IMG/VR virus record: IMGVR_UViG_3300020385_000005
Span: 1-64,000 of that record
Length of the DNA: 64,000 bases
From: a virus
Reading direction: 5' to 3' (one strand)
Shown here in pieces: positions 437 through 21,266 of this stretch (position 1 is the first letter of the stretch; every line of letters begins with the position of its first letter). The notes below the pieces were generated by a model. It was not told the DNA's origin and ran no database searches. It saw nothing but the letters and a program-made list of their open reading frames with translations. The position numbers were made by a program, and so were the translations under genes.

Positions 437-451
437 TTGTCCTTTCGACAA
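437..451 (-). promoter_or_regulatory. SD-in-loop hairpin (copy 1)
   Basis: mRNA sense UUGUC-GAAAG-GACAA, 5-bp stem, ends 4 nt before AUG 432. Confidence 0.55.
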
Positions 452-466
452 TTGGTGGTGTTTGGC

Positions 467-700
467 TTAATAGCCTTTTTCAAATACTGAGATTCGTTCA
501 ATTTCTTTTTCTGTGTCTGGATCATATCCAATAAGAATTAGTTCATTGAAGTCTTCTGGGTCTGAGAACAATGAGTACTTGTAAACAAACTCATATAGTT
601 TGTGTCTGGTTTGAAACTCTGTTGCTTGCTGAGCGAAGCCTTCATAGTTTCTTAGGAAGTAGTTGATAGTTCCGTCATCGGCTGTTGTCGTAGCTGGCAT
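467..700 (-). CDS. hypothetical protein (77 aa)
   Basis: ATG preceded by AAGGAGG (ctAAGGAGGcgcaATG). No function recognised. Confidence 0.55.
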   Translation of the reverse strand: MPATTTADDGTINYFLRNYEGFAQQATEFQTRHKLYEFVYKYSLFSDPEDFNELILIGYDPDTEKEIERISVFEKGY

Positions 701-713
701 TGCGCCTCCTTAG

Positions 714-857
714 TTAGGTTATGATTATGTAAATAATCTTACAAAAAAGAATTATTGTTATTAGAGACATGAGTTCTAATAAATTAACGGCGATAATGTC
801 TCCAAAGCCTCTCATTATTATGACGAAGCCTATTAGAAGCATTATATAGAAGAACAT
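714..857 (-). CDS. small hydrophobic protein (47 aa), not in ORF track
   Basis: MFFYIMLLIGFVIIMRGFGDIIAVNLLELMSLITIILFCKIIYIIIT. Its ATG overlaps the stop of 857..1165 (TAATG), and its stop abuts the RBS of 467..700, filling an otherwise empty gap. Confidence 0.45.
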   Translation of the reverse strand: MFFYIMLLIGFVIIMRGFGDIIAVNLLELMSLITIILFCKIIYIIIT

Positions 858-1165
858 TAGAAGTGCTTTTCTGCTAACTCTACTGCTCGTTGAGTGTAAA
901 CAGTATTAAACATTAATAATTTTTGTTGATCGATTTGTGATGTGTGAAAGAATGCTTGTACCAGTGAGTTAATTTCACTTTTTGACAAATACTTTGACAT
1001 CATTTCTAACCATTCATTTTTAGCTTCTTGCATGTAGCTTTCAAATGATTCTTCTTGTTCTTCATTTGCACCTGAAAGTATCGCCTCAAAAGTTGGTTGC
1101 ATGATAGTCATTGATCTATCGAACATCTGACTGAGAATTAGTTCTTGTGTTTCTTGGTGTGCCAT
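857..1165 (-). CDS. hypothetical protein (102 aa)
   Basis: ORF-track 857..1207 trimmed to ATG 1165 (MAHQETQ...), which has AAAGGAGGTG just upstream. Confidence 0.55.
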   Translation of the reverse strand: MAHQETQELILSQMFDRSMTIMQPTFEAILSGANEEQEESFESYMQEAKNEWLEMMSKYLSKSEINSLVQAFFHTSQIDQQKLLMFNTVYTQRAVELAEKHF

Positions 1166-1192
1166 TGCGCACCTCCTTTTATGAGTTTGATA

Positions 1193-1212
1193 CAATTGTG
1201 AACTCACAATTG
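1193..1212. promoter_or_regulatory. 20-bp perfect palindrome, operator-like
   Basis: CAATTGTGA-AC-TCACAATTG, about 25 nt upstream of ATG 1165. Half-sites match those of the symmetric lac operator (AATTGTGA). Confidence 0.4.
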
Positions 1213-1311
1213 CGGTTTTGTGTACTGAGTAACTTTTCTGTTAAAGATTCTGCGTTTTCATTAATGAACGAACTTACATCTTTTATGAATTTTTTACGTT
1301 AGATTCCATAT

Positions 1312-1749
1312 TTATCCTTTTGTCCAGAAAACTGTCATGCTTTCCTTGTAGCGGTTGTCGTTACGCTTGAGTTTTTCAATTGGATATGCGCGGCAGATTG
1401 TTTGTATACGCATCTTTTTGTAGCCGTCTACGACTAAGTGCCACTTCGTATCATACTGGTCATCTTGTTTCTCATTTGTTATGAACGATGCTGTGCACAA
1501 TTCTTTTGCTTGGTTGCGCAATTGGTCAATCACGTTTTGGTCTAAAAATTCTAGGAATTGGAATGCTTTTTCTTCAGTTTCTAGGCCTTCAATTTTATCA
1601 ATAGCATCGTAATATTGATTTCTTACGATAATCCCGAAGATCCCGCCAATATTTGCCATAATGTGATATAGGCAAGCGGCGTCATTGTTGAAACCGAATC
1701 TTTGTGCTTTTGCTACTTTAGCAATTTTTGCAATCTTTTTTTCGTCCAT
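1312..1749 (-). CDS. hypothetical protein (145 aa)
   Basis: ATG start with AGAGGAAAAA upstream; protein-like composition; no motif recognised. Confidence 0.55.
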   Translation of the reverse strand: MDEKKIAKIAKVAKAQRFGFNNDAACLYHIMANIGGIFGIIVRNQYYDAIDKIEGLETEEKAFQFLEFLDQNVIDQLRNQAKELCTASFITNEKQDDQYDTKWHLVVDGYKKMRIQTICRAYPIEKLKRNDNRYKESMTVFWTKG

Positions 1750-1765
1750 TTTTTCCTCTATTATT

Positions 1766-2017
1766 TCAATTATCTGATGATATTGAATCTATCATTTTGT
1801 GAAAAGATTCATAATCTTGTGGTTCGCATACTACTGTATGAGTCACCAAGGTTATTTTTAACAGGCAGAGAGTTCCTCCACCTAGATCTTCAACTACTGG
1901 AAAGTTCATCATTTGCATTGTTTGCATTTGAGCCATGTTAATGGTGATAATCCCAGTAGCTTCATATCTTGGAGTGATATTTTTTCTTTCGTAAAGATGA
2001 AATGTGTGCAACAACAT
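1766..2017 (-). CDS. hypothetical protein (83 aa)
   Basis: ATG start, tightly packed with neighbours on the same strand. Confidence 0.5.
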   Translation of the reverse strand: MLLHTFHLYERKNITPRYEATGIITINMAQMQTMQMMNFPVVEDLGGGTLCLLKITLVTHTVVCEPQDYESFHKMIDSISSDN

Positions 2018-2019
2018 TA

Positions 2020-2274
2020 TTATTCTTCTTCTTTGAATGGTTTTAACATTTCTTTTACCATCAGGGCTATCAGGCTAGCTCTTACGGTAGATGGGTGTGC
2101 TACTTCTACTGAAGCAATACCCATGTGGAATGCTAAGTCTTTGATATCGTTATAAGAATCGTATTCATATAAGTGTTCAGCAGCCCACCTTTTTGCAGTT
2201 TCTGGGCTGACTTTTTCTCTTTTTGCTTCCCATATGATATCATGTAGATATCCAATATTTGATTCGTAACTCAT
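2020..2274 (-). CDS. hypothetical protein (84 aa)
   Basis: ATG preceded by a variant hairpin RBS (GUUC-GAAAG-GAAC). Confidence 0.55.
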   Translation of the reverse strand: MSYESNIGYLHDIIWEAKREKVSPETAKRWAAEHLYEYDSYNDIKDLAFHMGIASVEVAHPSTVRASLIALMVKEMLKPFKEEE

Positions 2275-2277
2275 TTC

Positions 2278-2290
2278 GTTCCTTTCGAAC
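2278..2290 (-). promoter_or_regulatory. SD-in-loop hairpin (copy 2, variant stem)
   Basis: mRNA sense GUUC-GAAAG-GAAC; ends 3 nt before AUG 2274. The stem differs from the other copies by compensatory changes. Confidence 0.5.
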
Positions 2291-2313
2291 TATGTTGTTA
2301 AGTTTTTTATTAA

Positions 2314-2385
2314 TGGGTCATGAAGGATTTGAACCTTCAACCAATGGATTAAAAGTCCACTGCTCTACCGTTGAGCTAATAACCC
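2314..2385 (-). tRNA. tRNA-Lys (anticodon UUU)
   Basis: 72 nt read on the minus strand: GGGTTAT-TA-GCTC-AACGGTA-GAGC-A-GTGGA-CTTTTAA-TCCAT-TGGTT-GAAGG-TTCAAAT-CCTTC-ATGACCC-A. Canonical cloverleaf; CCA not encoded. Confidence 0.9.
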
Positions 2386-2768
2386 TTGCTGCGGGAAGCA
2401 GGTGATGGGTTTGCCATCTGAGTTGTTTCCCTATTATTTATCTACTATCTAGTCCTGTATATCTCAGGCTGTCACCCGAAGGTGTCCGCTCCAACCATGT
2501 GCAAGCACTGGGGGTTGTAGAATATGGAGCTTGTTTATCCACAACAGGTTGTCAATCTGCTGTTTCCTTGACTTTCTGGGGCAGGTAGTCAATGCGATAT
2601 TAAGGTGGCCACCTCTTTATCTCACCTTATGATTATGTTTTCTTGCATGCAAGTTTCTCTCTTTCTCGTAAGTAAGTGTCGACCTTTATTTACTGATGAG
2701 TTTATAGGGTAAAATGCTTTTCCTTAAACATTAATATACTGTATGTGATGTAGAAGGAAAACAAGAAT
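2386..2768 (-). ncRNA. ORF-free G+C-elevated segment directly upstream of tRNA-Lys (candidate structured leader or ncRNA)
   Basis: No ORF in any frame. On the minus strand there is a c(UUCG)g hairpin (about 2473-2486), hairpins GAUGG-CAAAC-CCAUC and CUGC-UUCCC-GCAG next to the tRNA, and palindromes CTTGCATGCAAG (2642-2653) and AGGTGGCCACCT (2603-2614). Confidence 0.3.
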
Positions 2769-3209
2769 TTAAACGTTAGTACCATTAATGTCATTTTTAG
2801 TTACTCTGCGGTATGGGTAGCTTTTTGTTTTAATTTGAAAAACGTTTTTTGCAACGCTTTCAGTTGCTACGTTCACAGGAGCATCAGTAAATTCTTCTGA
2901 AATTTCACTTGATAGTTCATCTTCAGGGTTTTCTGGCACTCGAGGGTGCTCTTCTTCGAATTTATCAACAATTTGATCCATGTCAGTTTCAAAGTTTTTG
3001 AACTCTCTGATGCTTCGCGGAAAGAAGATCATCCCAATTGCTCTTACTCTTGAATGGGTTTTTTTTGTGTGGTGGATTTTTTCACCGATGTCGATGAGAT
3101 CTGGCCACACGTTTTCTTTATAAAATTTAGAAGTACGATCCCACATTTTAGGGATGATCTCTCTTTTTACGTACACTTCTTCAAGTGCGCTCAGTAAATC
3201 ATTTAGCAT
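2769..3209 (-). CDS. hypothetical protein (146 aa)
   Basis: ATG 3209 preceded by the hairpin RBS; acidic C-terminal half. Confidence 0.55.
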   Translation of the reverse strand: MLNDLLSALEEVYVKREIIPKMWDRTSKFYKENVWPDLIDIGEKIHHTKKTHSRVRAIGMIFFPRSIREFKNFETDMDQIVDKFEEEHPRVPENPEDELSSEISEEFTDAPVNVATESVAKNVFQIKTKSYPYRRVTKNDINGTNV

Positions 3210-3483
3210 TGTTGAAAGTCCTTTCGACTTTTTTTAATCTTTTTGTCCATTCTGCTGGACAGATCTGATAAGCGTAATCAAACCCATCTAGTACTGCTTC
3301 ATGGTTTGCTGAGATGGCCATATTGCATGTGCCATCCCACTCCTTTTGACATTCCTTGATTGTTTCTTCTAGGACTTTGATGGAGTCTTTGATGAAAGCA
3401 ATCTGCTGTTTGCATGTTGGCTCTGCTTGAGCGAACATTGGTAGTGTTAAAATAAATACAAATATAAGTGATAACGATTTCAT
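3199..3483 (-). CDS. small secreted protein (94 aa)
   Basis: Trimmed to ATG 3483 (AAAAGGAG upstream). Signal peptide MKSLSLIFVFILTLPMFAQA/EP; four Cys in the mature part. Confidence 0.55.
   Translation of the reverse strand: MKSLSLIFVFILTLPMFAQAEPTCKQQIAFIKDSIKVLEETIKECQKEWDGTCNMAISANHEAVLDGFDYAYQICPAEWTKRLKKVERTFNNAK
3216..3230 (-). promoter_or_regulatory. SD-in-loop hairpin (copy 3)
   Basis: mRNA sense AAGUC-GAAAG-GACUU, 5-bp stem with compensatory A-U pairs; ends 6 nt before AUG 3209. Confidence 0.55.
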
Positions 3484-3500
3484 TTTTAGTCTCCTTTTAT

Positions 3501-3563
3501 TTAAAGGAAAACAGCCATTGAAATAACGATTATACAAATCCTACAAAAGAGTGCTTCTTCCAT
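3501..3563 (-). CDS. possible 20-aa hydrophobic micro-ORF
   Basis: MEEALFCRICIIVISMAVFL. ATG lies 1 nt after the stop of 3565..3873 and the ORF ends just before the next RBS. Very short, so weak. Confidence 0.25.
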   Translation of the reverse strand: MEEALFCRICIIVISMAVFL

Positions 3564-3564
3564 T

Positions 3565-3873
3565 TTAAGCCTCCGTTGTTTCGGTTTGTGGTTTTTCTGT
3601 TACTTTTTCAGTTGTTTTTCCAGCATTTTTTATTTCAGTTCTCAACCCTGCACATACTGCTGTCCATGTATTTACAACAGTATTGCTTGTCTCTTTAGAC
3701 ATTAGTCCAAGAAACGTTAAGAAACCTAGGGGAATGACGACAATCATTAGAAACAGTTCTAATAACTCAATAATCGGGAACCATTTTACGATTGACGCAA
3801 GAATACCTACTGTTAGACCCATCCTGGCCCATGTAGGTAAGTTTTCGAAATCTTCTTTTACTTTATTTAGCAT
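3565..3873 (-). CDS. membrane protein (102 aa)
   Basis: Two hydrophobic helices (GLTVGILASIVKWFPIIELLELFLMIVVIPLGFLTFLGLM); AAAGGA RBS. Confidence 0.55.
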   Translation of the reverse strand: MLNKVKEDFENLPTWARMGLTVGILASIVKWFPIIELLELFLMIVVIPLGFLTFLGLMSKETSNTVVNTWTAVCAGLRTEIKNAGKTTEKVTEKPQTETTEA

Positions 3874-3951
3874 TTTTATATCCTTTTTAGATTAGGATTT
3901 ATTTTTGCTCAGTAAAGAGAGATTTTTAGCCTGGTTTTGTTAGTTAAAAGT

Positions 3952-4371
3952 TTAACGGTCCCCGTATGGGTTTCCATCTTCATCCAATATGCCTTCATCT
4001 GAGACTAGGTGCATATTGTTTTCAAGTCTTTCTGCTTGACGAATTTTTGACAACCGCATGAATTCATCTACATTTCTTGTCCCAAGGTAAACGAGTACTG
4101 ATTGGTACCCGTTATTCGAGAATCTTACGCATGTCCAGATCTCTTTTTCATGTGCTAACTCTACGATTGTAGCAGCTGCCATCAAAAAACCTTGCATGTG
4201 GCAATTGTCTTCTGGAAGCGCTGAGACGAATTGTCTCATTACTCCTGATTTCAATCTAACGCAGCTAACACCTTGCCATAAATAATGGATATAAAAATAC
4301 TCTTTTAAGTTTTCAGGGATTAGCTGGAATGCTTGTTGATGGATAGTTGGTACTCGGTTTTGATTTGGCAT
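3952..4371 (-). CDS. hypothetical protein (139 aa)
   Basis: ATG with GAAGGAGG upstream. Confidence 0.55.
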   Translation of the reverse strand: MPNQNRVPTIHQQAFQLIPENLKEYFYIHYLWQGVSCVRLKSGVMRQFVSALPEDNCHMQGFLMAAATIVELAHEKEIWTCVRFSNNGYQSVLVYLGTRNVDEFMRLSKIRQAERLENNMHLVSDEGILDEDGNPYGDR

Positions 4372-4384
4372 TTCGCCTCCTTCT

Positions 4385-4624
4385 TTACTTCTCTTTTTTA
4401 AACACAGAGAAGAAATATAGTGTGGTTAGAATTATCGCATATGCTTCAAGTTCTTTGAGTTTGCACATTTTCAATAATTCAAAAGGAATTAGATAAATCA
4501 TGAGCCCTGCTACAAAATAAATTATAAGCGCTAGGTCTTTATCTATTGGTGGATTTTTTATTTTTACTGAAACTTTTAGGGAAATTATTGTGGCTGACAG
4601 TACGAATATCAGGTAGTAGATCAT
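4385..4624 (-). CDS. small membrane protein (79 aa)
   Basis: Hydrophobic throughout (2-3 helices); AGGAG RBS. Confidence 0.5.
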   Translation of the reverse strand: MIYYLIFVLSATIISLKVSVKIKNPPIDKDLALIIYFVAGLMIYLIPFELLKMCKLKELEAYAIILTTLYFFSVFKKEK

Positions 4625-4749
4625 TATTTACTCCTGATTATCTCTTTTCCTAAAAGTCCCATTTTAGTACACATTGGTTGAATATATTTCAATTCAACTA
4701 AAAGTTGGTAAACATGCTTGTTCATGTTCCTTATTTTTCTTTTTTTCAT
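4624..4749 (-). CDS. small basic protein (41 aa), not in ORF track
   Basis: MKKRKIRNMNKHVYQLLVELKYIQPMCTKMGLLGKEIIRSK. AGGAGA lies 5 nt upstream, and the stop overlaps ATG 4624 (TAATG). Confidence 0.4.
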   Translation of the reverse strand: MKKRKIRNMNKHVYQLLVELKYIQPMCTKMGLLGKEIIRSK

Positions 4750-4917
4750 TTTGTCTCCTGACATTGCGTCATAAGAATAAGCCAATCACCTTAAAAGGTC
4801 ATCAGGGGTGCTGTGCACCCTACCACATCTTCCACAACAAAGATGAGAACATATCAATAGTTCTTATAACTAGACCCCAGAAAGGTTAACACAGGTCTTG
4901 TTATATTGGTTTCGGCA

Positions 4918-4944
4918 CTTTTAAAATCTCTCTTTTGGAGAGAC
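4918..4944 (-). terminator. intrinsic terminator after 4990..5511
   Basis: Minus strand: GUCUCUC-CAAAA-GAGAGAU followed by UUUUAAAAG. Confidence 0.55.
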
Positions 4945-4989
4945 TCCCGATTTTATACGGGTTTGCATCTTGCGATGGCCTGATTGGTA

Positions 4990-5511
4990 TTAAGCACTTT
5001 TAATTTCGTCACTTCTGAAAGCAAGTGCATTTAGCTTCCATTCATTGTCGGTGAAGTCAGGTGGCATAGCGTCTCCACTATGCATCGTCCATAAGGTTAA
5101 CTTATTATTTTTATTAGGGAATACAATGAGTGTTACTTTATTTGTTTCTCTAAAGGGTTCTTCTCTGATAACTACTGGTTGAAGAGGTCGATCCTTACCA
5201 CGATAGTGCATCTGACGCTCTTCTTTCTCAAGGCTGCCATCACCTACTTTAGGTCCGCAGAGTCTAGTTACTGCAAGGAATTGGTTGTCAATTGTGAAAG
5301 TATGAGCACCTGCTGAGATTCCTGCTTGGTCGAATAGACTAAAAGCTTTTTCTATAGCAAGAGGTGTCAACTCGTCAAGATGACTCAAGAAGTGACGTGC
5401 TCCTACAGGAGGGAGTTCGATTTCATAGTGACGGCATAGAGTCTCTGTGACTTCTTTGCTGTCATCAGCGCGATCTGAGAAGGGTGATGTTGTAAAAAAA
5501 TTTATAGACAT
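4990..5511 (-). CDS. hypothetical protein (173 aa)
   Basis: ATG with AAAGGAGA upstream; globular-looking composition; no motif recognised. Confidence 0.6.
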   Translation of the reverse strand: MSINFFTTSPFSDRADDSKEVTETLCRHYEIELPPVGARHFLSHLDELTPLAIEKAFSLFDQAGISAGAHTFTIDNQFLAVTRLCGPKVGDGSLEKEERQMHYRGKDRPLQPVVIREEPFRETNKVTLIVFPNKNNKLTLWTMHSGDAMPPDFTDNEWKLNALAFRSDEIKSA

Positions 5512-5537
5512 GTCGTCTCCTTTTAAAGAAAAGTTGA

Positions 5538-5843
5538 TTAATTATTTTTGTAACCAGCGTGATAGTAACGCTTGTCACCAATGACTTTTAGAGAGGAGTC
5601 ATCGTCCTCATGTAATTCGATGTATACTGTGACATTTTTAATGTCTAAGTCGTATTCATCTTCTGTTTCGTCATTCAGTTCTACCAATTCTAGTGGGAAC
5701 CTTTCTGATGGATTGAAGAACATGTTTAATACTGTGGGTAATCGTACCCACCAGTTTCTTATGTTTATAGCCATTTCTGGACTGCACTTTGCGATCCAGA
5801 TGCGGTACCCGTATTCTTCGTTTATGACTAGATACTTAGACAT
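5538..5843 (-). CDS. hypothetical protein (101 aa)
   Basis: ATG with AAGGTGGGAAG upstream. Confidence 0.55.
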   Translation of the reverse strand: MSKYLVINEEYGYRIWIAKCSPEMAINIRNWWVRLPTVLNMFFNPSERFPLELVELNDETEDEYDLDIKNVTVYIELHEDDDSSLKVIGDKRYYHAGYKNN

Positions 5844-6159
5844 CTTCCCACCTTACTAGCCCAAGGCTAATCAGAACCATTGCTGGTATTGCAAATGGAA
5901 GTAACCATATTTCTATGTGTTTGAATTTCCATTCGTTTTTTATTGTCAGGATTGATCCTTTTACTTGCTTGAAGAAAATTATGTTTAAAACTACAAAAAC
6001 AAAACATGTTGTTTCCAAATTGAACAATGGACACATGTATACAATTAACGGTAATAGCGCCCATACTTTTGTATTGTCTGGGCATTTACTTATTTTTCTT
6101 TGTATAAGGGAAAATGTTTCTTCTAGTAGACAGATTATAATATTATAAAAAAAGAACAT
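5836..6159 (-). CDS. membrane protein (107 aa)
   Basis: Hydrophobic, about 3 helices. Overlaps the next start by 8 nt. No clear SD. Confidence 0.4.
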   Translation of the reverse strand: MFFFYNIIICLLEETFSLIQRKISKCPDNTKVWALLPLIVYMCPLFNLETTCFVFVVLNIIFFKQVKGSILTIKNEWKFKHIEIWLLPFAIPAMVLISLGLVRWEDV

Positions 6160-6166
6160 ATTATTT

Positions 6167-6646
6167 CTATAGGTATTCTGCTACACGTTCTGTGTAGCCG
6201 TCGTTGTGAAGAATTCTTTTTAGATAGCCTGGCCATTCTTTGACCTCGGCTACACGATGCGTACGTTTAACGAGAGCAAGCATTGCACGTCTCGTCTCAA
6301 CTATGTGTACAGCAGATTTGTTGCTGTCATCGTCGATGAGAATCGTGCCATTTGTCAGAAGAAACGCTATTCGGTGTCCGATATGTGTCTCTTTTATCAT
6401 CTTGTCAGAAGGCATAAAGAACTTTGGATTGTTCTTCTGCTTCATCATCTTAATGTACTTAAAGACACGTTTGCTTCCTGCATTTACAAAATCTTCTGTG
6501 TCGTGGAAGAACACATTATATGAAAATTCCGTAGACATTAGGATCGCTTCTGCGGGTTTTTTTATTAGCGCATAGAAACGATCTTCAAGAGAAGCATACT
6601 CGCGTTCACTTTTAGGTCGTCTGTTTCTTACTTTTTGCAAATGCAT
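6167..6646 (-). CDS. hypothetical protein (159 aa)
   Basis: The ORF-track start at 6667 is TTG. The first ATG at 6646 (MHLQKV...) has AGGTG upstream. Confidence 0.5.
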   Translation of the reverse strand: MHLQKVRNRRPKSEREYASLEDRFYALIKKPAEAILMSTEFSYNVFFHDTEDFVNAGSKRVFKYIKMMKQKNNPKFFMPSDKMIKETHIGHRIAFLLTNGTILIDDDSNKSAVHIVETRRAMLALVKRTHRVAEVKEWPGYLKRILHNDGYTERVAEYL

Positions 6647-6921
6647 GATGCACCTGCTTTCTTGCAATTACGACGACTACGAGGACATCCATAGCTTAGA
6701 ACACGCAATGCATGCTTTTTTGCTGTAGGATGAGCTAGTATATACGTTACAATGTTTGGTGCGCGAGTCACACGACATATAGTGTGAATCACGTCGAAGA
6801 TCTCTTCAACGCTTTTGTCTTCGATAAGCTCTTGAAGCTCTTCTTTGATTTCAAAGAGGCCTGGAGAGGTCATCATACTGTTGCCTTTTACATAGGCATT
6901 GTATAATACTTCATGGTTCAT
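6628..6921 (-). CDS. hypothetical protein (97 aa), Cys/basic C-terminus
   Basis: ATG 6921 preceded by the hairpin RBS. C-terminal sequence is CPRSRRNCKKAGASCICKK. Confidence 0.55.
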   Translation of the reverse strand: MNHEVLYNAYVKGNSMMTSPGLFEIKEELQELIEDKSVEEIFDVIHTICRVTRAPNIVTYILAHPTAKKHALRVLSYGCPRSRRNCKKAGASCICKK

Positions 6922-6926
6922 AATCG

Positions 6927-6941
6927 TTGTCCTTTCGACAA
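6927..6941 (-). promoter_or_regulatory. SD-in-loop hairpin (copy 4)
   Basis: mRNA sense UUGUC-GAAAG-GACAA, identical to copy 1; ends 5 nt before AUG 6921. Confidence 0.55.
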
Positions 6942-6989
6942 ATTTTAATCATATAAATAAAGTAGTTATCACTATTATAAGTAACGTAG

Positions 6990-7409
6990 TCATGCCGCAC
7001 CTATTTTATCTTCTAAACACTCACCCAATCTTGTAGTGTCTAGCTTTCCTTCATTAACAACAGCCTTATATCCGCGCCAAGTAATTGAAACTAGCTTATT
7101 TCTAAACTTATTTCCTTCATAACTGAGTACAAAGTATCCACCGACGTGAGGCCAATGGAATAACCAGCGATCTTCCCAATGCGACTTATTAGCGAGTTCT
7201 GATGGTTCTTCCGTCCACATGAAGTGGAGAAACTTACCAACTTTTAGTTCTGGTTCCTCTTCAGTTAAAAAAGATGGAAAACATTTTACTAAGATATTGG
7301 CGAACTCCATGTTGCCGTCTGGTCTCACCCAGGACGGTCTTACTGCGCCGCCCATTCCTGATGCTAACAAGGTGCCCATTTCGGGCGTGATTTGTAAGTA
7401 TTCTTTCAT
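6990..7409 (-). CDS. hypothetical protein (139 aa)
   Basis: The ORF-track start at 7427 is TTG and lies inside the RBS hairpin. ATG 7409 (MKEYLQ...) lies 4 nt after the hairpin. Confidence 0.55.
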   Translation of the reverse strand: MKEYLQITPEMGTLLASGMGGAVRPSWVRPDGNMEFANILVKCFPSFLTEEEPELKVGKFLHFMWTEEPSELANKSHWEDRWLFHWPHVGGYFVLSYEGNKFRNKLVSITWRGYKAVVNEGKLDTTRLGECLEDKIGAA

Positions 7410-7413
7410 ATCG

Positions 7414-7426
7414 TGTCCTTTCGACA
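7414..7426 (-). promoter_or_regulatory. SD-in-loop hairpin (copy 5)
   Basis: mRNA sense UGUC-GAAAG-GACA. Confidence 0.5.
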
Positions 7427-7550: not shown

Positions 7551-7628
7551 TTAGTTGTATGGCTTTTGAAGTTCTATGGCTGCCCAGCCAAAGAACACTG
7601 CTATTGATAAGAAAATTAGAATTACCAT
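7551..7628 (-). CDS. possible 25-aa single-TM micro-ORF
   Basis: MVILIFLSIAVFFGWAAIELQKPYN. Its ATG overlaps the stop of 7628..8371 (TAATG). Confidence 0.35.
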   Translation of the reverse strand: MVILIFLSIAVFFGWAAIELQKPYN

Positions 7629-8371
7629 TATTTGGTCTCCTTGTGATCCATCATCCAGCGAATTATGGTGATGGTGTTAAAAAAGCCGAGCGTCTTCAGT
7701 GTTTTTGAGCAGATTAGCTCATACTCTTGCCACTCGTCTTTCTTTTTTAGGGCGTGTCTCGCTAGTACGTTTTCAATTGTATTGATAGAAGAGATTTTGA
7801 TTGAGAATCCAGAGGAAATCAATCTTTCTTGCCCTTTTATCATACTCTCGCTACGTAATGGTAAGAGAAGTAGACTCCACTCTTCATCAGCCATACGAGC
7901 GGCTGATACGAGCTCTTTTTCATTCTCTTTGATATCACAACGTGGTTCTTCTGCAACTATTCTTTCAACGATAGGTGCTAAGAGAGCTTTCGCAGCTAAG
8001 AGTTTCCTAGCGTGTTTGTTGAGAAAAGCCTCTGGTGCTTTGGCTGCTGTTACTTTTGGCAGCAGTTCTCCAAGATACCATAATCCAAGCAGAGAGAAGA
8101 CTGTTGTAAACAGTCCCCATTGCCACCCACAATATGAACCCACCAAGAAACCATTCAACATGCTGAAGCCAGCATTTGCTAAATGGTTTGCCAAGGCACA
8201 TGTGCCTAATGATCTTGTGCCGCCATCGACGAACCTCTTAGCTTCTTCCGACAACTTGTTGCTGTCGGCGATGTTCATTGCGACCTCACCTCCGCTGAAG
8301 AGGAATGAGAGAGAGGATTGAAGGGTGAGAATTACTGAGGAAATGATTTTAAACATTTTTAGCTCTTTCAT
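7628..8371 (-). CDS. membrane-associated hypothetical protein (247 aa)
   Basis: Protein-like sequence with hydrophobic N-terminus and central helices. The antisense ORF 7665..8321 is Ser-rich junk. Start is uncertain (alternative ATG at 8356). Confidence 0.5.
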   Translation of the reverse strand: MKELKMFKIISSVILTLQSSLSFLFSGGEVAMNIADSNKLSEEAKRFVDGGTRSLGTCALANHLANAGFSMLNGFLVGSYCGWQWGLFTTVFSLLGLWYLGELLPKVTAAKAPEAFLNKHARKLLAAKALLAPIVERIVAEEPRCDIKENEKELVSAARMADEEWSLLLLPLRSESMIKGQERLISSGFSIKISSINTIENVLARHALKKKDEWQEYELICSKTLKTLGFFNTITIIRWMMDHKETK

Positions 8372-8544
8372 GGAGAATGTGTATTAAATAGATCTTTAAT
8401 ATAACAACTTTTAAAGTTTCGTCTTGTCAAACCTTCAAGTTGTTAATAATAAAGAAGAAAAAAGATTTTTTGAACGCAATAGCAAATCAGTTAATGATTT
8501 TCGCGCGCATTATTCTTTTTTTTGAGAACCTCTGCTATCAGCAG

Positions 8545-8975
8545 AACTGACATTGCCTGCACCCAACTACGAAGAAGTAGTTCTCATGAGGGGCTGCTGG
8601 AGAGGGAAGGGTTCGAACCTTCTATCTTATCTGCTTTAGATTGAGGTTTAGGACATGTGGCGCTAACCACATCTCAATCGATTTCTAACCATGCATACTT
8701 TCAATAACGTTAAGGCGTCCTACTTCCGTCACGTTGTTGACTCTTTGCACAGTTATCAAGTTTGCAGACAAACCACTATACCTGGATTAGTGATTCTCTC
8801 CCCATATACTGACCTAACGGAATGCAGAGGAGTCGAACCCCTGCAACTCGCGAACGAGCACCATCCTTTTTTCGAATATAAGCTCAGCAAAACTTATAAC
8901 GGCTTCAATAAAGAACTTGCTGGTTCTCTATTTCCACGGATCTTCCTAGAACACCTAATAGAAGTCGAATCTATT
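8545..8975 (-). ncRNA. ORF-free structured block with tRNA-like modules (unclassified)
   Basis: Minus strand contains a D-arm plus Cys-type anticodon-loop-like 5' part (8760-8803) and a T-arm GAAGG-UUCGAAC-CCUUC plus acceptor-like CCUCUCC-A (8598-8622). It also has an 8-bp T-loop hairpin (8823-8845), a UUCG hairpin (8847-8858), and a 7-bp long-range helix GAUUGAG/CUCAAUC. No complete cloverleaf can be drawn. Confidence 0.3.
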
Positions 8976-8977
8976 AA

Positions 8978-8994
8978 AGCCCCCGAAATGGGCT
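8978..8994 (-). terminator. weak hairpin 3' of 9011..9526
   Basis: AGCCC-AUUUCGG-GGGCU followed by UUUAAUAG. The T-run is poor. Confidence 0.3.
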
Positions 8995-9010
8995 AGGTGT
9001 CGTGTGTGGC

Positions 9011-9526
9011 TTAGAGCTTTTTGAGCTCGAGCCACTTGTTGAGGGGGCCTTTAGCGTTGTAAAACGCTTTAAGGTCCTGTTGGGACAGGCCTGCGACTTG
9101 GCGCAGGTGTTGATCCACTGATGACGAAACGTTTTCGTCGTCGTCAGCGCTCACTAGCGCTTCAAGGGGAAGGTCGAAGACCCTCACCGGAGAGTGGTTG
9201 ACAATCTCAAACCATCCGCCATTATTATGGTAGATGGAGACAGAGACGCAGTCGTTCTCGTCAATACAACGTTTGACGTTCCCGTGTTGGAGCGGGTCGC
9301 CTCCGACAGAGAACAACCCCTCGTGAGGAAGAATGAGCTCAACAAATTCCCTTGGGAATCGGTGGGCGAAGTCTATTATTAGACCCACCCACATCCCCTT
9401 GAGACCTAAGGCCTCGGGAGCAAGGTAAGATATGAGATTGAGTGACAGGTGTTTTTCCTCATCTACCGAGGAGACTCTCTTCATGAGGATTTTGTAGATG
9501 GTGATGATTGCTTGACGTTTTGTCAT
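9011..9526 (-). CDS. hypothetical protein (171 aa)
   Basis: The ORF-track start at 9562 is GTG; the first ATG at 9526 (MTKRQ...) is used here. Composition is G+C-richer than the early block. Confidence 0.5.
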   Translation of the reverse strand: MTKRQAIITIYKILMKRVSSVDEEKHLSLNLISYLAPEALGLKGMWVGLIIDFAHRFPREFVELILPHEGLFSVGGDPLQHGNVKRCIDENDCVSVSIYHNNGGWFEIVNHSPVRVFDLPLEALVSADDDENVSSSVDQHLRQVAGLSQQDLKAFYNAKGPLNKWLELKKL

Positions 9527-9900
9527 GACTTCTTCTTTCTGTGGCGTGTTAGAATGGCGCACTTCTTAAAAGGGCGCGCACATTCATTATTTTCCCTCTA
9601 TAAGGAACAAAACTAAAGCATACTTTAACATTTGTGCTTGTAGCTTAAAGAGACAAAACTACTCCACTAAACAACAAGTGAGCAAGATATGTCTCGCAAC
9701 AGAGAGATAGAGGAACTGTAGCAGGTTCACTGCTGAAAGGGGCTTTTAGAGCCCCTATTGTCTGGTTTTGACTTGTTTAGGGTAGGTATGAGGGTGGTCT
9801 GAGGTGGTGTTAGGGTAGGACTTGACTAGGTGCACCCTGATTTTATCTCTTTATAACTATAAATCCTTATATATTAGGTATTTATGTTACTTTTAACTTA

Positions 9901-9942
9901 ATTATAACAAGGAAAGACAAATAAATCGTCACGTCTCGTCAC
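9901..9942 (-). promoter_or_regulatory. extended -10 promoter candidate plus GTGACGAG motif (copy A)
   Basis: On the minus strand TGTTATAAT (9909-9901) is a perfect TGnTATAAT. GTGACGAGACGTGACG (9942-9927) lies upstream, immediately after the terminator at 9951-9982. Confidence 0.45.
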
Positions 9943-9950
9943 TTTTCAGC

Positions 9951-9982
9951 TAAAAAAAGAGTGTTTACCCCCTAGGGAAACT
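9951..9982 (-). terminator. intrinsic terminator closing the ORF-free unit
   Basis: Minus strand: GUUUCCC-UAGG-GGG(U)AAAC, then ACUC and a run of 7 U (plus-strand A run 9952-9958). Confidence 0.5.
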
Positions 9983-11468
9983 AGTCTCCTGTGCTTTAAA
10001 CGCACTTTTTGAGACTCGGAGGAGTTCTACCATATGGGAACTCTACCCCGGCCTACATCACTTCGATATAGGTCTTGATGGGATTGGTGTGTACTCTTTG
10101 CGCTTTCACGCCGAGGAGACCAGTACGCTGATCATTATCCCCCTCCGCCTTTAAGTGAACTTCACATACGTATATGTGTGGGGTGGCTTCACCATGACGG
10201 CAACCATTATCCCCTAAACTCACAATGATGGGCTCGAACCACCAAATGCAAAGGCAAGAGTTGTAGCTCTTGATACGCCTGGTCCTCACATATCTACAAA
10301 TATGCAACTTCCATTTGCTCCTCCCTCTGCACGCCGAAACCGGACTGTGCATATATCTCCAGTAATAAGGAGAATGAATAAGCTAAAGCAGAACTTTAAC
10401 ATATTAATTCACAGTATTACCGCGTCCCGCAAAGGGGATTTCAGGTGGCAAGTACTTACTACTTTGACTAGACGCATGCATCTAGGCTTTTCGCTTTCTT
10501 TGCCACCATATCTCATTCTTCACCAGAAGAGATTCACCGTTTATTTCCATTATCACTCCCCCGCTAAGGTTCGCTTACTGGATCATCGGTTTTGCATTTT
10601 CCCACTCCCGCTAAGGAGCTTCCATGCCAGGGCCATTTTCATTTAGGCTACCCTTGGGTTAGTTCTTCAACAAACGAATTGTTGAAGATATTCTTATAAT
10701 GAATGCATTCACTAATTTGGGGACTTTCCTTCCCCGAGAAATTCTTTATTGACTTACTTACCATGCCTGATAATAGCCACTGTATTTTGACCTGCTGACA
10801 TGAGGCGCATATGGGTTTGTTTTTTCTACAAACCGCGCACACCCCTTGTCTAAGGGTACTGGTTTTATCTCCAGCGACATAAGTTGCGACCTTATGCCAG
10901 TAACCCGCTTACCATTTCTCATTGGTATCCTTTGGAACATGAACTTATCATTCATTTCCGCAGGTAAGACCCGAAGGTCTAAGCGAGCACTATGCTTTTC
11001 TTTACGAAGGCGCATCTGGCTTCCGTTGAAAATTCTAATGTTCTTTTTTTTAAGTGTTTAGAAAATCACTGGGCCCAGCGTTAGCTGTCTTGATGAGAAA
11101 AGTGTTTCGTTCCCCTAAAGGACATCACTAATTAAAGCGATGCTAGCAGAGAGAAGCTCCACTAGACTCATCAGCCACGTCAACCCCAAAGGGCTTCAGC
11201 AGGACACTACTCAATTGATTTAACTGGCGACATTACGTCCGTTCATCAATTAAGATTTTGCCGACTTTTTTATGATAAAAGTCTAAATCATATGTAATAT
11301 TTTTAAGCCTGCTACATAACATTATGGCTTCCATTTTAAAGACTTGGATGTCTTGACCTTTTATTTCGCAGTGTGGTGGCGCGCCGCCATCATTCCACTC
11401 TATCTGCTTCTACACAGGTCTTCTCTTCATTTATATAGACCTCAAGAGAATAAGGCCTGAGATTATTA
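9983..11468 (-). ncRNA. candidate large structured ncRNA (unclassified, about 1.5 kb)
   Basis: There is no credible ORF. The block is dense in hairpins: a T-loop hairpin (10226-10244), c(UUCG)g (10967-10980), a 9-bp perfect hairpin (10665-10687) and a GC hairpin (11374-11389). A 14-mer is duplicated at 10554-10569 and 10603-10616. The block is bracketed by a motif and a terminator. Confidence 0.4.
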
Positions 11469-11486
11469 CGTCTCGTCTCGTCACAC
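11469..11486 (-). promoter_or_regulatory. GTGACGAG motif (copy B)
   Basis: Minus strand: GUGUGACGAGACGAGACG followed by TAATAAT and an AT-rich tract, at the head of the ORF-free unit. Confidence 0.35.
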
Positions 11487-11563
11487 CTTTCGGTTAACGA
11501 ATTTGAGAAACACCGATGTAGCTATATTGCTAATTACGGTGTTCTCGCGAACAGAACGAGTGA

Positions 11564-12169
11564 TTACTTCTTCTTCGGAGGCTTGACGGGATCTTCTACC
11601 TGGGGAGGTTGGATTGCTAGTCCAACACTCTCTGCCGCTACCCAGCTAATACCGCGGTCTTGCGACACGAGTGTACCAACGGGCAACATAGAAGATCCAT
11701 CATGAGGCGCCGCAGCACTTGTACTCATGTCCCACACATACCACGAAGGCTGAGCGGGAGGTTGAATTGGAGCCGCTACAGGAGCTTGTACTGGAGTACT
11801 AGCCGCAGCCGCAGCCATCTCTTGTCCTCGGATAAAACCGAGCTGTTGGTTGAGTTGTTGAGTCTCCAACGACAAGGCAGAGATTTTATACTCTGCAGCT
11901 GCATCAAGATCGTTTAGCTTCTTGATGTGCTTAGCACGCAAATTCAAGACCAGCGTCGTACCCTCCCCAACCAAATCACTCACCGCGACTGCATCCACCG
12001 GATCGACGACGGCACCTGCGCCGCCTATACCCTGCAAATTCTTCGAGACAAGTTTTTGACCCTTGAAGATCTTTGCCAAACGCTGTGTCTCCGACAACAG
12101 CGCTACTTCCTCCGCCAACTCCTGAAGCTTCTTCTCAATCTGTTCACTGTTGTTCAATTGGTATAGCAT
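11564..12169 (-). CDS. coiled-coil / Ala-Pro-rich protein (201 aa)
   Basis: AGGAGG RBS. N-terminal heptad-like region; C-terminal PVQAPVAAPIQPPAQP and a KPPKKK tail. Confidence 0.6.
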   Translation of the reverse strand: MLYQLNNSEQIEKKLQELAEEVALLSETQRLAKIFKGQKLVSKNLQGIGGAGAVVDPVDAVAVSDLVGEGTTLVLNLRAKHIKKLNDLDAAAEYKISALSLETQQLNQQLGFIRGQEMAAAAASTPVQAPVAAPIQPPAQPSWYVWDMSTSAAAPHDGSSMLPVGTLVSQDRGISWVAAESVGLAIQPPQVEDPVKPPKKK

Positions 12170-12280
12170 AATTTCCTCCTACAGAACGGGGCTAACCTTG
12201 TTAAAAAAAGACAACAATGGATCAAACATTTTCCTAACTAAATCTTGATAACAAACAAGAAATAGAAAATAAAAAATATT

Positions 12281-12298
12281 ATCACCTCGTCACACACA
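12281..12298 (-). promoter_or_regulatory. GTGACGAG motif (copy C)
   Basis: Minus strand: GUGUGUGACGAGGUGATAATAT followed by an AT-rich leader of the 12169 gene. Confidence 0.35.
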
Positions 12299-12392
12299 AG
12301 GGGAGCGAGCTTGCGAGCTGGGAGCTTGCGACCTCCTCGTCTCCGCGTGCGGAGTCAGCTTGTCTGGCGGAGTCTTTGCATTTTGTTTAACG

Positions 12393-12470
12393 GAGGATGC
12401 AAAACCCCCATTGAAAGAAATAAATTAAAAAAACCCCCCAAGTCGCCGAAGCAACCTGAGGGGTTTTTTT
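12393..12470 (-). terminator. terminator plus conserved box, cassette copy 1
   Basis: A 13-bp stem with a c(UUCG)g loop (12434-12463) is flanked by T/A runs. On the minus strand it is followed by TTTTTTTAATTTATTTCTTTCAATGGGGGTTTTGCATCCTCC. Confidence 0.65.
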
Positions 12471-12494
12471 AATTATACATAGCTACCTAACTTA

Positions 12495-12965: not shown

Positions 12966-12973
12966 ACTCTCCT

Positions 12974-19501: not shown

Positions 19502-19507
19502 ATCAGT

Positions 19508-19521
19508 GTCCTTTCAAAGAC
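19508..19521 (-). promoter_or_regulatory. SD-in-loop hairpin (loose variant) before the giant gene
   Basis: mRNA sense GUC-UUUGAAAG-GAC; ends 6 nt before AUG 19501. Confidence 0.35.
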
Positions 19522-19586
19522 TTGATGAATAGCTAAAGCCGAAATGGCACCTTCTGGTAGAAGGCTGGAGAGTCGCTATAATCTCT

Positions 19587-21247: not shown

Positions 21248-21251
21248 GATT

Positions 21252-21266
21252 ATGTCCCTTCGACAT
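21252..21266 (-). promoter_or_regulatory. SD-in-loop hairpin (copy 7)
   Basis: mRNA sense AUGUC-GAAGG-GACAU; ends 4 nt before AUG 21247. Confidence 0.5.

What the first reader, a model, noticed from the sequence alone, without database searches (positions are those of the whole stretch)
437..7426. Covarying hairpin that presents the Shine-Dalgarno in its loop, shared by seven start sites
Seven minus-strand genes have a small stem-loop with a GAAAGG-type purine loop (GAAGG in one copy, UUUGAAAG in the loose one) that ends 3-6 nt before the AUG, so the loop's SD-like GGA lies 5-9 nt from the AUG. The copies are UUGUC-GAAAG-GACAA (437-451 and 6927-6941), UGUC-GAAAG-GACA (7414-7426), AAGUC-GAAAG-GACUU (3216-3230), GUUC-GAAAG-GAAC (2278-2290) and AUGUC-GAAGG-GACAU (21252-21266). 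A looser GUC-UUUGAAAG-GAC (19508-19521) precedes the giant polymerase-like gene. The loop is the only SD-like element for these genes. The stems differ by compensatory changes (UGUC/GACA, AGUC/GACU, GUUC/GAAC), which argues for RNA structure rather than a DNA site. Other genes use plain AAGGAGG. This looks like a translational operator defining a co-regulated gene set (conceptually like T4 RegA or MS2 coat-protein operators), or a structured SD display. It also ties the AT-rich early block and the G+C-rich island to one regulatory system.
Basis: seen in the sequence. Interest (0 to 1): 0.65.

Follow-up and report, generated by a model that had tools for sequence, protein, structure and literature searches.

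The report
Hairpin-framed ribosome binding sites in phage
Several early-strand genes of an uncultured ~160 kb marine phage start just after a small, evolutionarily maintained RNA hairpin whose purine loop is the ribosome-binding (Shine-Dalgarno) sequence; it is a real, recurrent structured start-site design, but nothing shows that it is an operator for a dedicated repressor.

Summary
GTCGAARGGAC occurs 5 times in the window against 0.00 expected, always on the minus strand, 3-6 nt before an ATG. Predicted hairpins are -3.4 to -5.4 kcal/mol. I found an eighth candidate at 4752-4763 (TGTC-AGGA-GACA).

The window is a Tara Oceans myovirus-like phage. Related lineages carry the same device with other stems (UGCC/GGCA, CUUC/GAAG, GCUC/GAGC, GUUC/GAAC) and the same loop. 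Across the window and relatives, 17 of 49 GAAAGG sites just before a start are enclosed by a perfect stem of at least 4 bp. Elsewhere the figure is 3 of 114 (p = 8e-8). The base pairing is therefore selected.

All loop variants (GAAAG, GGAAG, GAAGG, GGAAAG, AGAAAG) stay complementary to the common 16S rRNA 3' tail CCUUUCU. This explains the loop conservation without a binding protein. Loop length varies from 5 to 8 nt. The hairpin is gained and lost between orthologues, and no RNA-binding protein was recognised.

My best reading is a cis-acting structured ribosome-binding site that shows most of a tail-type SD in its loop. A trans-acting translational operator remains possible (about 0.2). The seventh, loose site partly sequesters its SD and fits the family poorly.

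The parts
437..451 (-). Hairpin UUGUC-GAAAG-GACAA, 4 nt before ATG 432 (gene 118-432, 104 aa)
   Evidence: -4.6 kcal/mol; 28.4 bits. A metatranscriptome contig spans 356-523, so the hairpin lies inside a longer RNA.
2278..2290 (-). Hairpin GUUC-GAAAG-GAAC, 3 nt before ATG 2274 (gene 2020-2274, 84 aa); lies 23 nt after tRNA-Lys
   Evidence: -3.6; 24.1 bits. Orthologues keep GUUC/GAAC with loops GAAAGG or GAAAAG.
3215..3231 (-). Hairpin AAAGUC-GAAAG-GACUUU (6 bp), 5 nt before ATG 3209 (gene 2769-3209, 146 aa); lies inside the 3' end of the overlapping upstream ORF 3199-3483
   Evidence: -5.4; 25.5 bits. The orthologue alignment gives the same consensus hairpin, with 2 compensated pairs.
4752..4763 (-). 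Candidate eighth member UGUC-AGGA-GACA, 2 nt before ATG 4749 (41-aa ORF 4624-4749, not called in the public records)
   Evidence: -2.9 kcal/mol. A similar CGTC-AGGA-GAC precedes a 60-aa ORF in L070. Tentative.
6927..6941 (-). Hairpin UUGUC-GAAAG-GACAA, 5 nt before ATG 6921 (gene 6628-6921, 97 aa)
   Evidence: -4.5; 26.4 bits.
7414..7426 (-). Hairpin UGUC-GAAAG-GACA, 4 nt before ATG 7409 (gene 6990-7409, 139 aa)
   Evidence: 25.1 bits. L072 has UGUC-GGAAAG-GACA before a similar MK.. start.
19508..19521 (-). Loose copy before the 2175-aa gene (12974-19501): GUC-UUUGAAAG-GAC, or better GUCUU-UGAA-AGGAC, 6 nt before ATG 19501
   Evidence: -3.4/-3.5. Not detected by model R1. Orthologues have GCCUU-AGAA-AGGGC, CCCU-AGAA-AGGG and ACCC-N8-GGGU. 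The consensus is only 3 weak pairs.
21252..21266 (-). Hairpin AUGUC-GAAGG-GACAU, 4 nt before ATG 21247 (gene 19676-21247, 523 aa, lipoprotein-like N-terminus)
   Evidence: -4.8; 24.7 bits. Orthologues have UGUC-GGAAG/GAAAAG/GGAAAG-GACA and GUC-UCAGAAAG-GAC.

Best explanation
This is a family of cis-acting structured ribosome-binding sites. In the mRNA, a 4-6 bp hairpin of about -3.5 to -6 kcal/mol frames a 'tail-type' Shine-Dalgarno sequence, 5'-(A/G)GAAAGG(A/G)-3'. The five or six loop nucleotides and the first two nucleotides of the 3' arm are complementary to the 3'-terminal CCUUUCU that follows CCUCC in the 16S rRNA of many bacteria.

I infer the following mechanism. The single-stranded loop nucleates pairing with the 16S tail, and the weak stem is then displaced. 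The hairpin thereby sets a defined, context-independent accessibility for a weak SD that lacks the GGAGG core. It may also shield the A-rich site from alternative pairings or nucleases.

The following are shown:
- the motif exists;
- it lies only in front of start codons on the sense strand;
- its stems covary and its loop is conserved across several phage lineages;
- it recurs at unrelated genes.

The following are inferred:
- the direction of the effect on translation (tuning or insulating);
- the host has a UUUCU-type 16S tail.
For: 1. Position and strand:
- All exact core matches in the window lie 3-6 nt before ATGs on the coding strand.
- In 240 kb of related loci, model R1 hits of at least 14 bits are all on the sense strand. 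Apart from one intragenic/alternative-frame ATG in L078, they lie directly before called gene starts.

2. Selected base pairing:
- GAAAGG placed 2-12 nt before an ORF start is enclosed by a perfect stem of at least 4 bp in 17 of 49 cases, against 3 of 114 elsewhere (Fisher 8e-8).
- The seed alignment is 85% paired with 13 double-change cells, and 0 of 500 shuffles reach that.
- An alignment of g3209 orthologues chosen by orthology gives the same hairpin, with A-U to G-C and to C-G replacements.
- Stems seen with the same loop are UUGUC/GACAA, AAAGUC/GACUUU, GUUC/GAAC, UGCC/GGCA, ACUUC/GAAGU and GCUC/GAGC.

3. The loop behaves as an SD:
- GAAAGGA, GAAGGGA, GGAAGGA, GGAAAGGA, AGAAAGGA and GAAAGGAG all pair contiguously (Watson-Crick plus G.U) with 3'-UCUUUCCUC-5'.
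- AGAAAGG is the commonest NGAAAGG before starts (24 of 50) and is also used without any hairpin.
- The GG-to-ATG distance of 6-10 nt is the same with and without a hairpin.
- 16S tails ending GAUCACCUCCUUUCU(A) are documented in many bacteria, and their terminal bases are used in SD pairing (PMC6288834).

4. Not a fixed regulon:
- The proteins behind the motif are unrelated to each other.
- The hairpin is lost at g432 orthologues (L075, L076, L078) and gained at the g5511 orthologue of L072.

5. It may be part of a general habit of this genome, but the surplus rests largely on the motif sites. 19 of 52 starts have a hairpin of at least 4 bp ending 2-8 nt upstream, against 18.6% of control ATGs, and 7 of the 19 are the motif sites themselves. 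SD-in-loop hairpins also occur at late genes (48293, 51245).
Against: - There is no experimental or read-level RNA evidence. Only one short metatranscriptome contig covers a site.
- The host is unknown, so its 16S tail is unknown. If the tail ends CCUCCUUA, as in beta- and gamma-proteobacteria, only AAGGA would pair, and the conserved first loop G and closing C-G pair would need another explanation.
- Within the window, the five AT-block copies share an invariant 9-mer (UCGAAAGGA). This is tighter than an SD strictly needs and would also suit a protein site.
- Two SD nucleotides are paired in the stem, so the hairpin could equally be mildly inhibitory. 'Display' versus 'attenuation' cannot be decided from sequence.
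- Sense-strand A.C or C.A mismatches (L057, L070) are as frequent as G.U pairs, so wobble evidence does not by itself prove RNA over DNA.
Confidence: 0.55

Rival explanations
1. The hairpin is a translational operator. A phage-encoded (RegA-, gp43-, Com- or coat-protein-like) or host (CsrA-like) RNA-binding protein recognises the C-G-closed GAAAG loop hairpin and represses or activates a set of early genes together.
For: - The architecture of conserved loop plus covarying stem is typical of protein-binding hairpins.
- An invariant UCGAAAGGA is shared by five genes in one 7.4 kb block.
- The site overlaps the SD, as in the T4 gp43 and RegA operators (PMC3014915).
- Almost all neighbouring genes are ORFans, so an unrecognised binding protein cannot be excluded.
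Against: - Loop length (5-8 nt) and sequence vary among members and orthologues. The only common denominator is anti-SD complementarity.
- Membership is gained and lost between close lineages.
- No known RNA-binding domain was found in the 32 proteins scanned.
- For CsrA specifically, GGA is half buried in the stem and is replaced by GGGC in some members.
Confidence: 0.22
2. The hairpin is an mRNA-protective element. It shields the purine-rich RBS from an endoribonuclease, either host RNase E or a RegB-like phage nuclease that inactivates unstructured SDs. This would prolong the functional life of selected messages.
For: - In T4, RegB cuts GGAG SDs of early genes, and secondary structure protects against it (PMC3014915).
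- The hairpins sit in A-rich leaders.
- Plain unstructured SDs coexist with structured ones in the same block.
Against: - No RegB-like or other nuclease was recognised next to the motif.
- The loop, which holds most of the SD, stays single-stranded and would remain exposed.
- There are no RNA-end data.
Confidence: 0.1
3. The motif is a DNA-level element. Candidates are a palindromic protein-binding site, an N4-type single-strand hairpin promoter giving leaderless mRNAs, or a micro-homology cassette that shuffles small ORFs (as with the PeSL cassettes of T4-type phages; from my own knowledge).
For: - The core GTC-N5-GAC is an inverted repeat.
- Two copies are identical 15-mers (437-451 and 6927-6941).
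- The centre of the loop lies 10-14 nt before the ATG.
- A giant 2175-aa protein of unknown function, with an invariant GDxDGD motif, is encoded nearby.
Against: - All copies have one orientation relative to the gene and an SD-like spacing.
- Half-sites covary instead of being conserved, which a dimeric DNA binder would not produce.
- One copy lies inside an upstream ORF that overlaps the start (3215-3231).
- An RNA contig reads through site 437-451.
- The island genes have their own terminator-plus-motif about 60-100 nt upstream of the hairpin.
- The loop is 5-8 nt, not the 3 nt of N4 promoters.
- The giant protein matches only a ComEA-like HhH motif.
Confidence: 0.04
4. The pattern is chance complementarity around ordinary SD sequences, or simple descent by duplication.
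For: - The stems are short.
- The SD-like loop is expected near starts anyway.
Against: - 0.00 matches are expected by chance.
- The enrichment of stems is 35% against 2.6%.
- Flanks and encoded proteins are unrelated.
- Different stems occur in different lineages.
Confidence: 0.01

Closest known systems
Extended ('3'-tail') Shine-Dalgarno pairing with 16S rRNA ...CCUCCUUUCU-3' (Silke, Wei & Xia 2018, PMC6288834)
   Same: The invariant part of the motif, (A/G)GAAAGG(A/G), is the exact complement of CCUUUCU. Its spacing to the AUG fits SD function, and the same heptamer is used without a hairpin at other genes of the clade.
   Different: Here the tail-type SD is systematically enclosed by a covarying stem at a subset of genes. 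That feature is not part of the general SD description.
T4/RB69 gene 43 translational operator and RegA operators (PMC3014915)
   Same: Both are small phage RNA elements at or overlapping the ribosome-binding site of early genes. The gp43 operator is a hairpin with a conserved loop just upstream of the SD.
   Different: The gp43 operator is a single autoregulatory site with a strictly conserved loop bound by a known protein. RegA sites have no conserved structure. Here there are 6-8 copies per genome region, variable loops, no known protein, and the SD itself is in the loop.
MS2/R17 coat-protein operator hairpin (own knowledge)
   Same: Both are short hairpins at a translation start whose occupancy would block initiation.
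   Different: The MS2 hairpin contains the AUG, has a bulged A and a strict loop, occurs once per genome, and has a known cognate protein.
CsrA/RsmE binding hairpins (A(N)GGA in a short hairpin loop overlapping the SD; PMC7366521 and own knowledge)
   Same: Both are short stems presenting a GGA-containing purine motif that overlaps the SD. The candidate at 4752-4763 (UGUC-AGGA-GACA) looks most like one.
   Different: In the main class, GGA straddles the loop and stem and is replaced by GGGC in some members. Sites are single rather than paired, and a UUUCU-tail host argues against the gamma-proteobacteria where CsrA sites are best known.
Lambda boxB (nut) hairpin: 5-bp stem, purine pentaloop GAAAA/GAAGA (own knowledge)
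   Same: The size and appearance are nearly identical: a 5-bp stem and a G-A-rich pentaloop in phage early RNA.
   Different: boxB needs A at loop position 5 (a GNRA-like fold), occurs once per early operon with boxA, and has no fixed distance to a start codon. Here the loop ends in G, there are many copies, and each lies 3-6 nt from an AUG.
SD-sequestering hairpins / RNA thermometers (ROSE, fourU; own knowledge)
   Same: Both use local pairing that involves SD nucleotides. The loose copy at 19508 and several other genes here (e.g. 3483: UCCUUU-N5-AAAGGA) are of this type.
   Different: In the tight class most of the SD is in the loop and only 2 nt are paired. There is no evidence of temperature control.

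Membership tests
Shine-Dalgarno ribosome-binding site | Purine-rich element 5-10 nt upstream of a genuine start codon | tested here: met
   All sites precede ORF starts that are also called in the public records. The GGA-to-ATG distance is 5-9 nt.
Shine-Dalgarno ribosome-binding site | Complementarity to the 3' end of the host 16S rRNA | tested here: inconclusive
   The element is fully complementary to the widespread CCUCCUUUCU tail (PMC6288834). AGAAAGG is used widely before starts in the clade. The host and its 16S rRNA are unknown.
Structured cis-regulatory RNA hairpin | Base pairs maintained by compensatory substitutions | tested here: met
   0 of 500 shuffles; 17/49 against 3/114; orthology-based alignment.
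Structured cis-regulatory RNA hairpin | Strand-specific and conserved in related genomes | tested here: met
   17 of 18 model hits in the first set of relatives are on the sense strand. At least 5 lineages carry it.
Translational operator (RegA / gp43 / MS2-coat type) | A cognate RNA-binding protein | not testable with these tools
   No RNA-binding domain was found in the 32 proteins scanned, but most are ORFans.
Translational operator (RegA / gp43 / MS2-coat type) | Recognition loop of fixed size and sequence | tested here: not met
   Loops are GAAAG, GAAGG, GGAAG, GAAAAG, GGAAAG, AGAAAG, CCAGAAAG and UAGAAAAGG.
Translational operator (RegA / gp43 / MS2-coat type) | Stable set of target genes across relatives | tested here: not met
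   The hairpin is lost at g432 orthologues and gained at a g5511 orthologue.
CsrA/Rsm binding site | Invariant GGA exposed in the hairpin loop | tested here: not met
   The GA of GGA is in the stem. Members exist with GGGC (L072 21260, L054) and AAGGC (L070 24069).
Lambda-type boxB/nut | GNRNA pentaloop ending in A; one site per early operon; no link to start codons | tested here: not met
   The loop ends in G. There are 6-8 copies, each 2-6 nt from an ATG.
N4-type hairpin promoter | 5-7 bp stem with a 3-nt loop, and an N4-like virion RNA polymerase | tested here: not met
   Loops are 5-8 nt. The 2175-aa protein has no detectable polymerase similarity by Pfam, PHROGs or PDB sequence/profile searches. 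A fold-level test was not possible.
Any Rfam family | Match to a curated covariance model | tested here: not met
   Only tRNA-Lys reaches the threshold. Nothing appears at the sites even at E<=1.

The most novel reading that the evidence does not exclude
The GAAAG-loop hairpins are operators of a so far unrecognised phage-encoded translational regulator (or ribosome-modifying factor). That factor would read a hairpin-displayed, tail-type SD and so switch a movable set of early genes and lipoprotein-like island genes on or off together. This would be a RegA-like regulon with a structured, covarying operator in an uncultured marine phage clade.
Probability: 0.2. Interest if true: 0.65.

Novelty: new variant of a known kind. 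Interest (0 to 1): 0.45.

Why it matters
Structured ribosome-binding sites are usually described gene by gene, as single operators, thermometers or riboswitch platforms. This case differs: one compact hairpin design, with most of the SD in the loop and free covarying outer stem pairs, is reused at many unrelated genes and across several lineages of an abundant, uncultured ocean phage group.

If the cis-acting reading is right, it gives three things:
- a natural example of an 'insulated' RBS module;
- a sequence signature that improves start-site calling in these genomes;
- a hint about the host, whose 16S tail should end in UUUCU, which would exclude E. coli-like gamma-proteobacteria.

If a protein reads it, it defines a new phage translational regulon with ready-made operator variants for testing.

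Tried and rejected
- Nucleotide search of the giant gene against GenBank phages found no match. The terminase has only 23-28% identity to Bacillus, Acinetobacter and Moorella jumbo phages, so no cultured relative or host could be named.
- The search for related loci with single proteins in IMG/VR found nothing. It worked only with an alignment.
- The exact 15-mer TTGTCGAAAGGACAA in IMG/VR gave 42 scattered single hits in unrelated contigs, about chance level. There is no evidence of a widespread mobile element.
- The homologue search with the 2175-aa protein timed out.
- The 10 kb beyond the left edge of the window (L060) has no further copies.
- Metatranscriptomes gave only seven short contigs, so transcript ends could not be mapped.
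- Near-identical population contigs show no variation at any site.
Each sequence folds on its own.
- Sigma-70 promoter and terminator scans were at background level.
- Motif genes are not preferentially first in operons. Upstream gaps range from -11 to 240 nt for motif genes and -19 to 392 nt for the others.
- The idea that the motif proteins are paralogues was rejected.
- The internal AGAAAGGAGG+ATG in the giant ORF is not conserved, so it was not used as evidence.
- A fold-level test of the 'polymerase-like' label was not possible, because orthologue sequences from loci cannot be submitted for structure prediction.

Full report
WHAT THE WINDOW IS. The window is part of a ~160 kb contig assembled repeatedly from Tara Oceans and other marine metagenomes, for example ERZ2779608 scaffold_49 at 161,732 bp. 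Bases 1-23,600 carry small ORFan genes on the minus strand, one tRNA-Lys, and a G+C-richer island holding a 523-aa and a 2175-aa gene. From 23,594 onwards the plus strand carries an SNase-domain giant protein, terminase, portal, major capsid and tail-sheath genes. Nothing in GenBank phages is similar at the DNA level. The terminase is only 23-28% identical to those of a few jumbo myoviruses. The host is unknown.

THE OBSERVATION.
- All seven sequences are present exactly as described, on the minus strand.
- GTCGAARGGAC occurs five times against 0.00 expected. TCGAAAGGA occurs five times against 0.44 expected. Every copy lies 3-6 nt before an ATG that is also the called start in the public records.
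- Over both strands of the 64 kb, perfect stems of at least 4 bp around a GAAAG or GAAGG loop occur seven times, and six are the claimed sites.
- RNAfold predicts each hairpin as the local minimum-energy structure, at -3.4 to -5.4 kcal/mol.
- A covariance model (R1, 21 positions, 5 pairs) separates the six tight copies (24-28 bits) from everything else in the window (17.7 bits or less).
- Neighbouring genes use plain AAGGAGG or AAAGGAG, and the motif genes have no other SD.

- Only the first G of GGA is in the loop. GA forms the first two stem pairs.
- The seventh site (19508-19521) is not found by the model. It folds better as GUCUU-UGAA-AGGAC, which buries AGGA in the stem.
- The 3216-3230 stem is 6 bp.
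- An eighth candidate, UGUC-AGGA-GACA, sits 2 nt before ATG 4749 of an uncalled 41-aa ORF.

RELATIVES. I recovered syntenic loci from at least five diverged lineages by protein homology. The same device recurs, always on the sense strand and almost always directly before called gene starts.

Examples from the relatives:
- L072: UGCC-GAAAG-GGCA before the orthologue of window gene 5511. In the window this gene has a plain AAAAGGAG.
- L072: ACUUC-GAAAG-GAAGU before the orthologue of 3209.
- L070: AAAAG-UAGAAAAGG-CUUUU before the orthologue of 3209.
- L057: AAGAUC-GAAAG-GACCUU, with one compensated A-U to G-C change and one A.C mismatch.
- L078/L079: GCUC-GAAAG-GAGC at two starts, one of them an uncalled ATG inside or overlapping L078 ORF 8486-8974 in another frame.
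- UGUC-GGAAG/GAAAAG/GGAAAG/AGAAAG-GACA before the 523-aa orthologues and neighbouring island genes.
- L076: UUG(U)UC-GGAAAG-GACAA.

The hairpin is also lost. Orthologues of gene 432 have a broken stem in L076, a plain AAAAAGGA in L075, and AGAAAGG without a stem in L078. The proteins behind the motif are unrelated to each other, so the copies are not carried along by gene duplication.

IS THE PAIRING SELECTED? On the seed alignment, 85% of cells pair and 13 cells show changes on both sides. None of 500 shuffles, and none of the slid registers, reaches this. Because those seeds were chosen as hairpins, I added two less biased tests.
- I took every distinct GAAAGG in the window and related loci, regardless of flanks. 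Of the 49 that lie 2-12 nt before an ORF start, 17 are enclosed by a perfect stem of at least 4 bp in the canonical register. Of the 114 elsewhere, 3 are (Fisher 8e-8). Some of the 49 are orthologous, so the p-value is optimistic.
- An alignment of the 3209 leaders chosen purely by orthology yields the same six-pair consensus, with two compensated pairs.

The pairing is therefore under selection. The single orientation, the fixed small distance to the AUG and the covarying (not conserved) half-sites argue for RNA rather than a duplex-DNA site. One short metatranscriptome contig reads through site 437-451 from the upstream gene. Wobble evidence is neutral, because sense-strand G.U pairs and A.C mismatches both occur.

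WHAT READS THE LOOP? The invariant part of all members is (A/G)GAAAGG(A/G). This is the exact complement of CCUUUCU, the bases that follow the CCUCC core at the mature 3' end of 16S rRNA in many bacteria. Beta- and gamma-proteobacteria end in CCUCCUUA instead (PMC6288834).

Several observations fit a ribosomal reader:
- The loop variants are exactly those that keep this pairing. The A-to-G changes (GGAAG, GAAGG, GGAAAG) give G.U wobbles. AGAAAG adds a pair. GCUC/GAGC stems extend the SD to GAAAGGAG.
- AGAAAGG is the commonest NGAAAGG heptamer before starts in the clade (24 of 50), and several genes use it with no hairpin at all.
- The GG-to-AUG distance is the same with and without a hairpin.

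The conservation of the loop, of its first G and of the closing C-G/U-A pairs is thus explained by the ribosome itself. The 3' arm must begin G-A/G because it is part of the SD, so the 5' arm must end Y-C. Only the outer stem pairs are free, and those are the ones that covary.

A specific protein operator would be expected to hold loop size and identity constant and to keep its targets. Neither is seen. No RNA-binding domain was recognisable among the 32 proteins scanned, 26 of them minus-strand, though most are ORFans. Rfam has nothing at the sites.

A BROADER HABIT. Of 52 gene starts in the window, 19 have a perfect hairpin of at least 4 bp ending 2-8 nt upstream, against 18.6% of all other ATGs. 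Seven of those 19 are the motif sites themselves. Without them the rate is 12 of 45 (about 27%), so the surplus rests largely on the motif and the broader habit is suggestive at most.

Besides the SD-in-loop class, which includes the late genes at 48293 and 51245, there is a second class. In it an anti-SD-like pyrimidine arm sequesters the SD:
- 3483: UCCUUU-AAAUA-AAAGGA, -6.5 kcal/mol, conserved in relatives.
- Also 3873, 10352, 29484 and 56878.

The loose seventh copy and its orthologues (GCCUU-AGAA-AGGGC, CCCU-AGAA-AGGG) belong nearer to this class. Their consensus is weak.

CONCLUSION. The most economical explanation is a cis-acting structured ribosome-binding site. A weak hairpin shows most of a tail-type SD in its loop and fixes the local accessibility of an otherwise weak, GGAGG-less SD. 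Whether the net effect is insulation, enhancement or mild attenuation is not decidable from sequence. My confidence is 0.55.

Protection from a RegB-like or host nuclease is a further option at about 0.1 (PMC3014915). DNA-level explanations and chance are unlikely.

The motif does link the AT-rich block and the G+C-richer island in the sense that both use the same RBS design. That is not evidence of co-regulation. I rate it a new variant of a known kind (structured RBS or translational cis-element), of moderate interest.

Noticed in passing
window 2314-2385 (-), within non-coding gap 2275-2768: A tRNA-Lys(UUU) gene sits in a ~494-nt stretch without ORFs. The hairpin-RBS of gene 2274 follows 23 nt after the tRNA 3' end. 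The remaining ~380 nt upstream of the tRNA is unexplained.
   Followed up: partly
window 19587-19609 and 21328-21350 (-): Each of the two island genes is preceded by an intrinsic terminator and then a shared motif TTTAATTTG..(Y)CC(Y)TTTAATGG (2 hits against 0.03 expected). This may be a phage-specific promoter, about 60-100 nt upstream of the hairpin-RBS.
   Followed up: partly
window 12974-19501 (-): The 2175-aa 'polymerase-like' protein matches only a ComEA-like helix-hairpin-helix motif (residues ~571-636). It has an invariant G-D-x-D-G-D at 924-929 in five orthologues, an Ala/Lys-rich stretch, and an N-terminus that looks like a signal or lipoprotein peptide. The neighbouring 523-aa and 200-aa proteins have similar N-termini. 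The polymerase identity is unconfirmed.
   Followed up: partly
window 18877-18900 (-): A perfect extended SD, AGAAAGGAGG, is followed after 4 nt by an in-frame ATG at codon 209 inside the 2175-aa ORF. It is not conserved in seven orthologues, so it may be lineage-specific or chance.
   Followed up: yes
window 3484-3510, 3874-3900, 10353-10380 (-); 29455-29483, 56850-56877 (+): A second class of start-site hairpins has an anti-SD-like pyrimidine arm that pairs with and sequesters the SD, for example UCCUUU-AAAUA-AAAGGA before gene 3483 (-6.5 kcal/mol, conserved in relatives).
   Followed up: partly
window ~48265-48292 and ~51222-51244 (+): Late structural genes (tail sheath and the next large gene) also have the SD in or straddling a hairpin loop (ATAACT-taaatagg-AGTTAT; TATTA-aggaga-TAATA). 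The sequences are unrelated to the early-strand motif.
   Followed up: no
L060 12446-15673 (same phage, beyond the left edge of the window); also L079 5515-7675: There is a 2OG-Fe(II) oxygenase and an adjacent pair of PurA-like adenylosuccinate synthetase and PurB-like lyase genes. The related L075 carries ThyX, SSB and an SLT lysozyme. The PurA-like gene could be an auxiliary purine gene or a PurZ-type enzyme; this was not examined.
   Followed up: no
window 24351-28373 (+): A 1340-aa protein with a staphylococcal-nuclease domain (residues 1034-1142) lies immediately upstream of the terminase and is conserved in all relatives.
   Followed up: no
window ~8000-22000: A G+C-richer island (44-48% against 36-38% elsewhere) has strongly negative GC skew and coincides with the lipoprotein-like genes. 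The CNNM-domain membrane protein at 7628-8371 lies at its edge.
   Followed up: no
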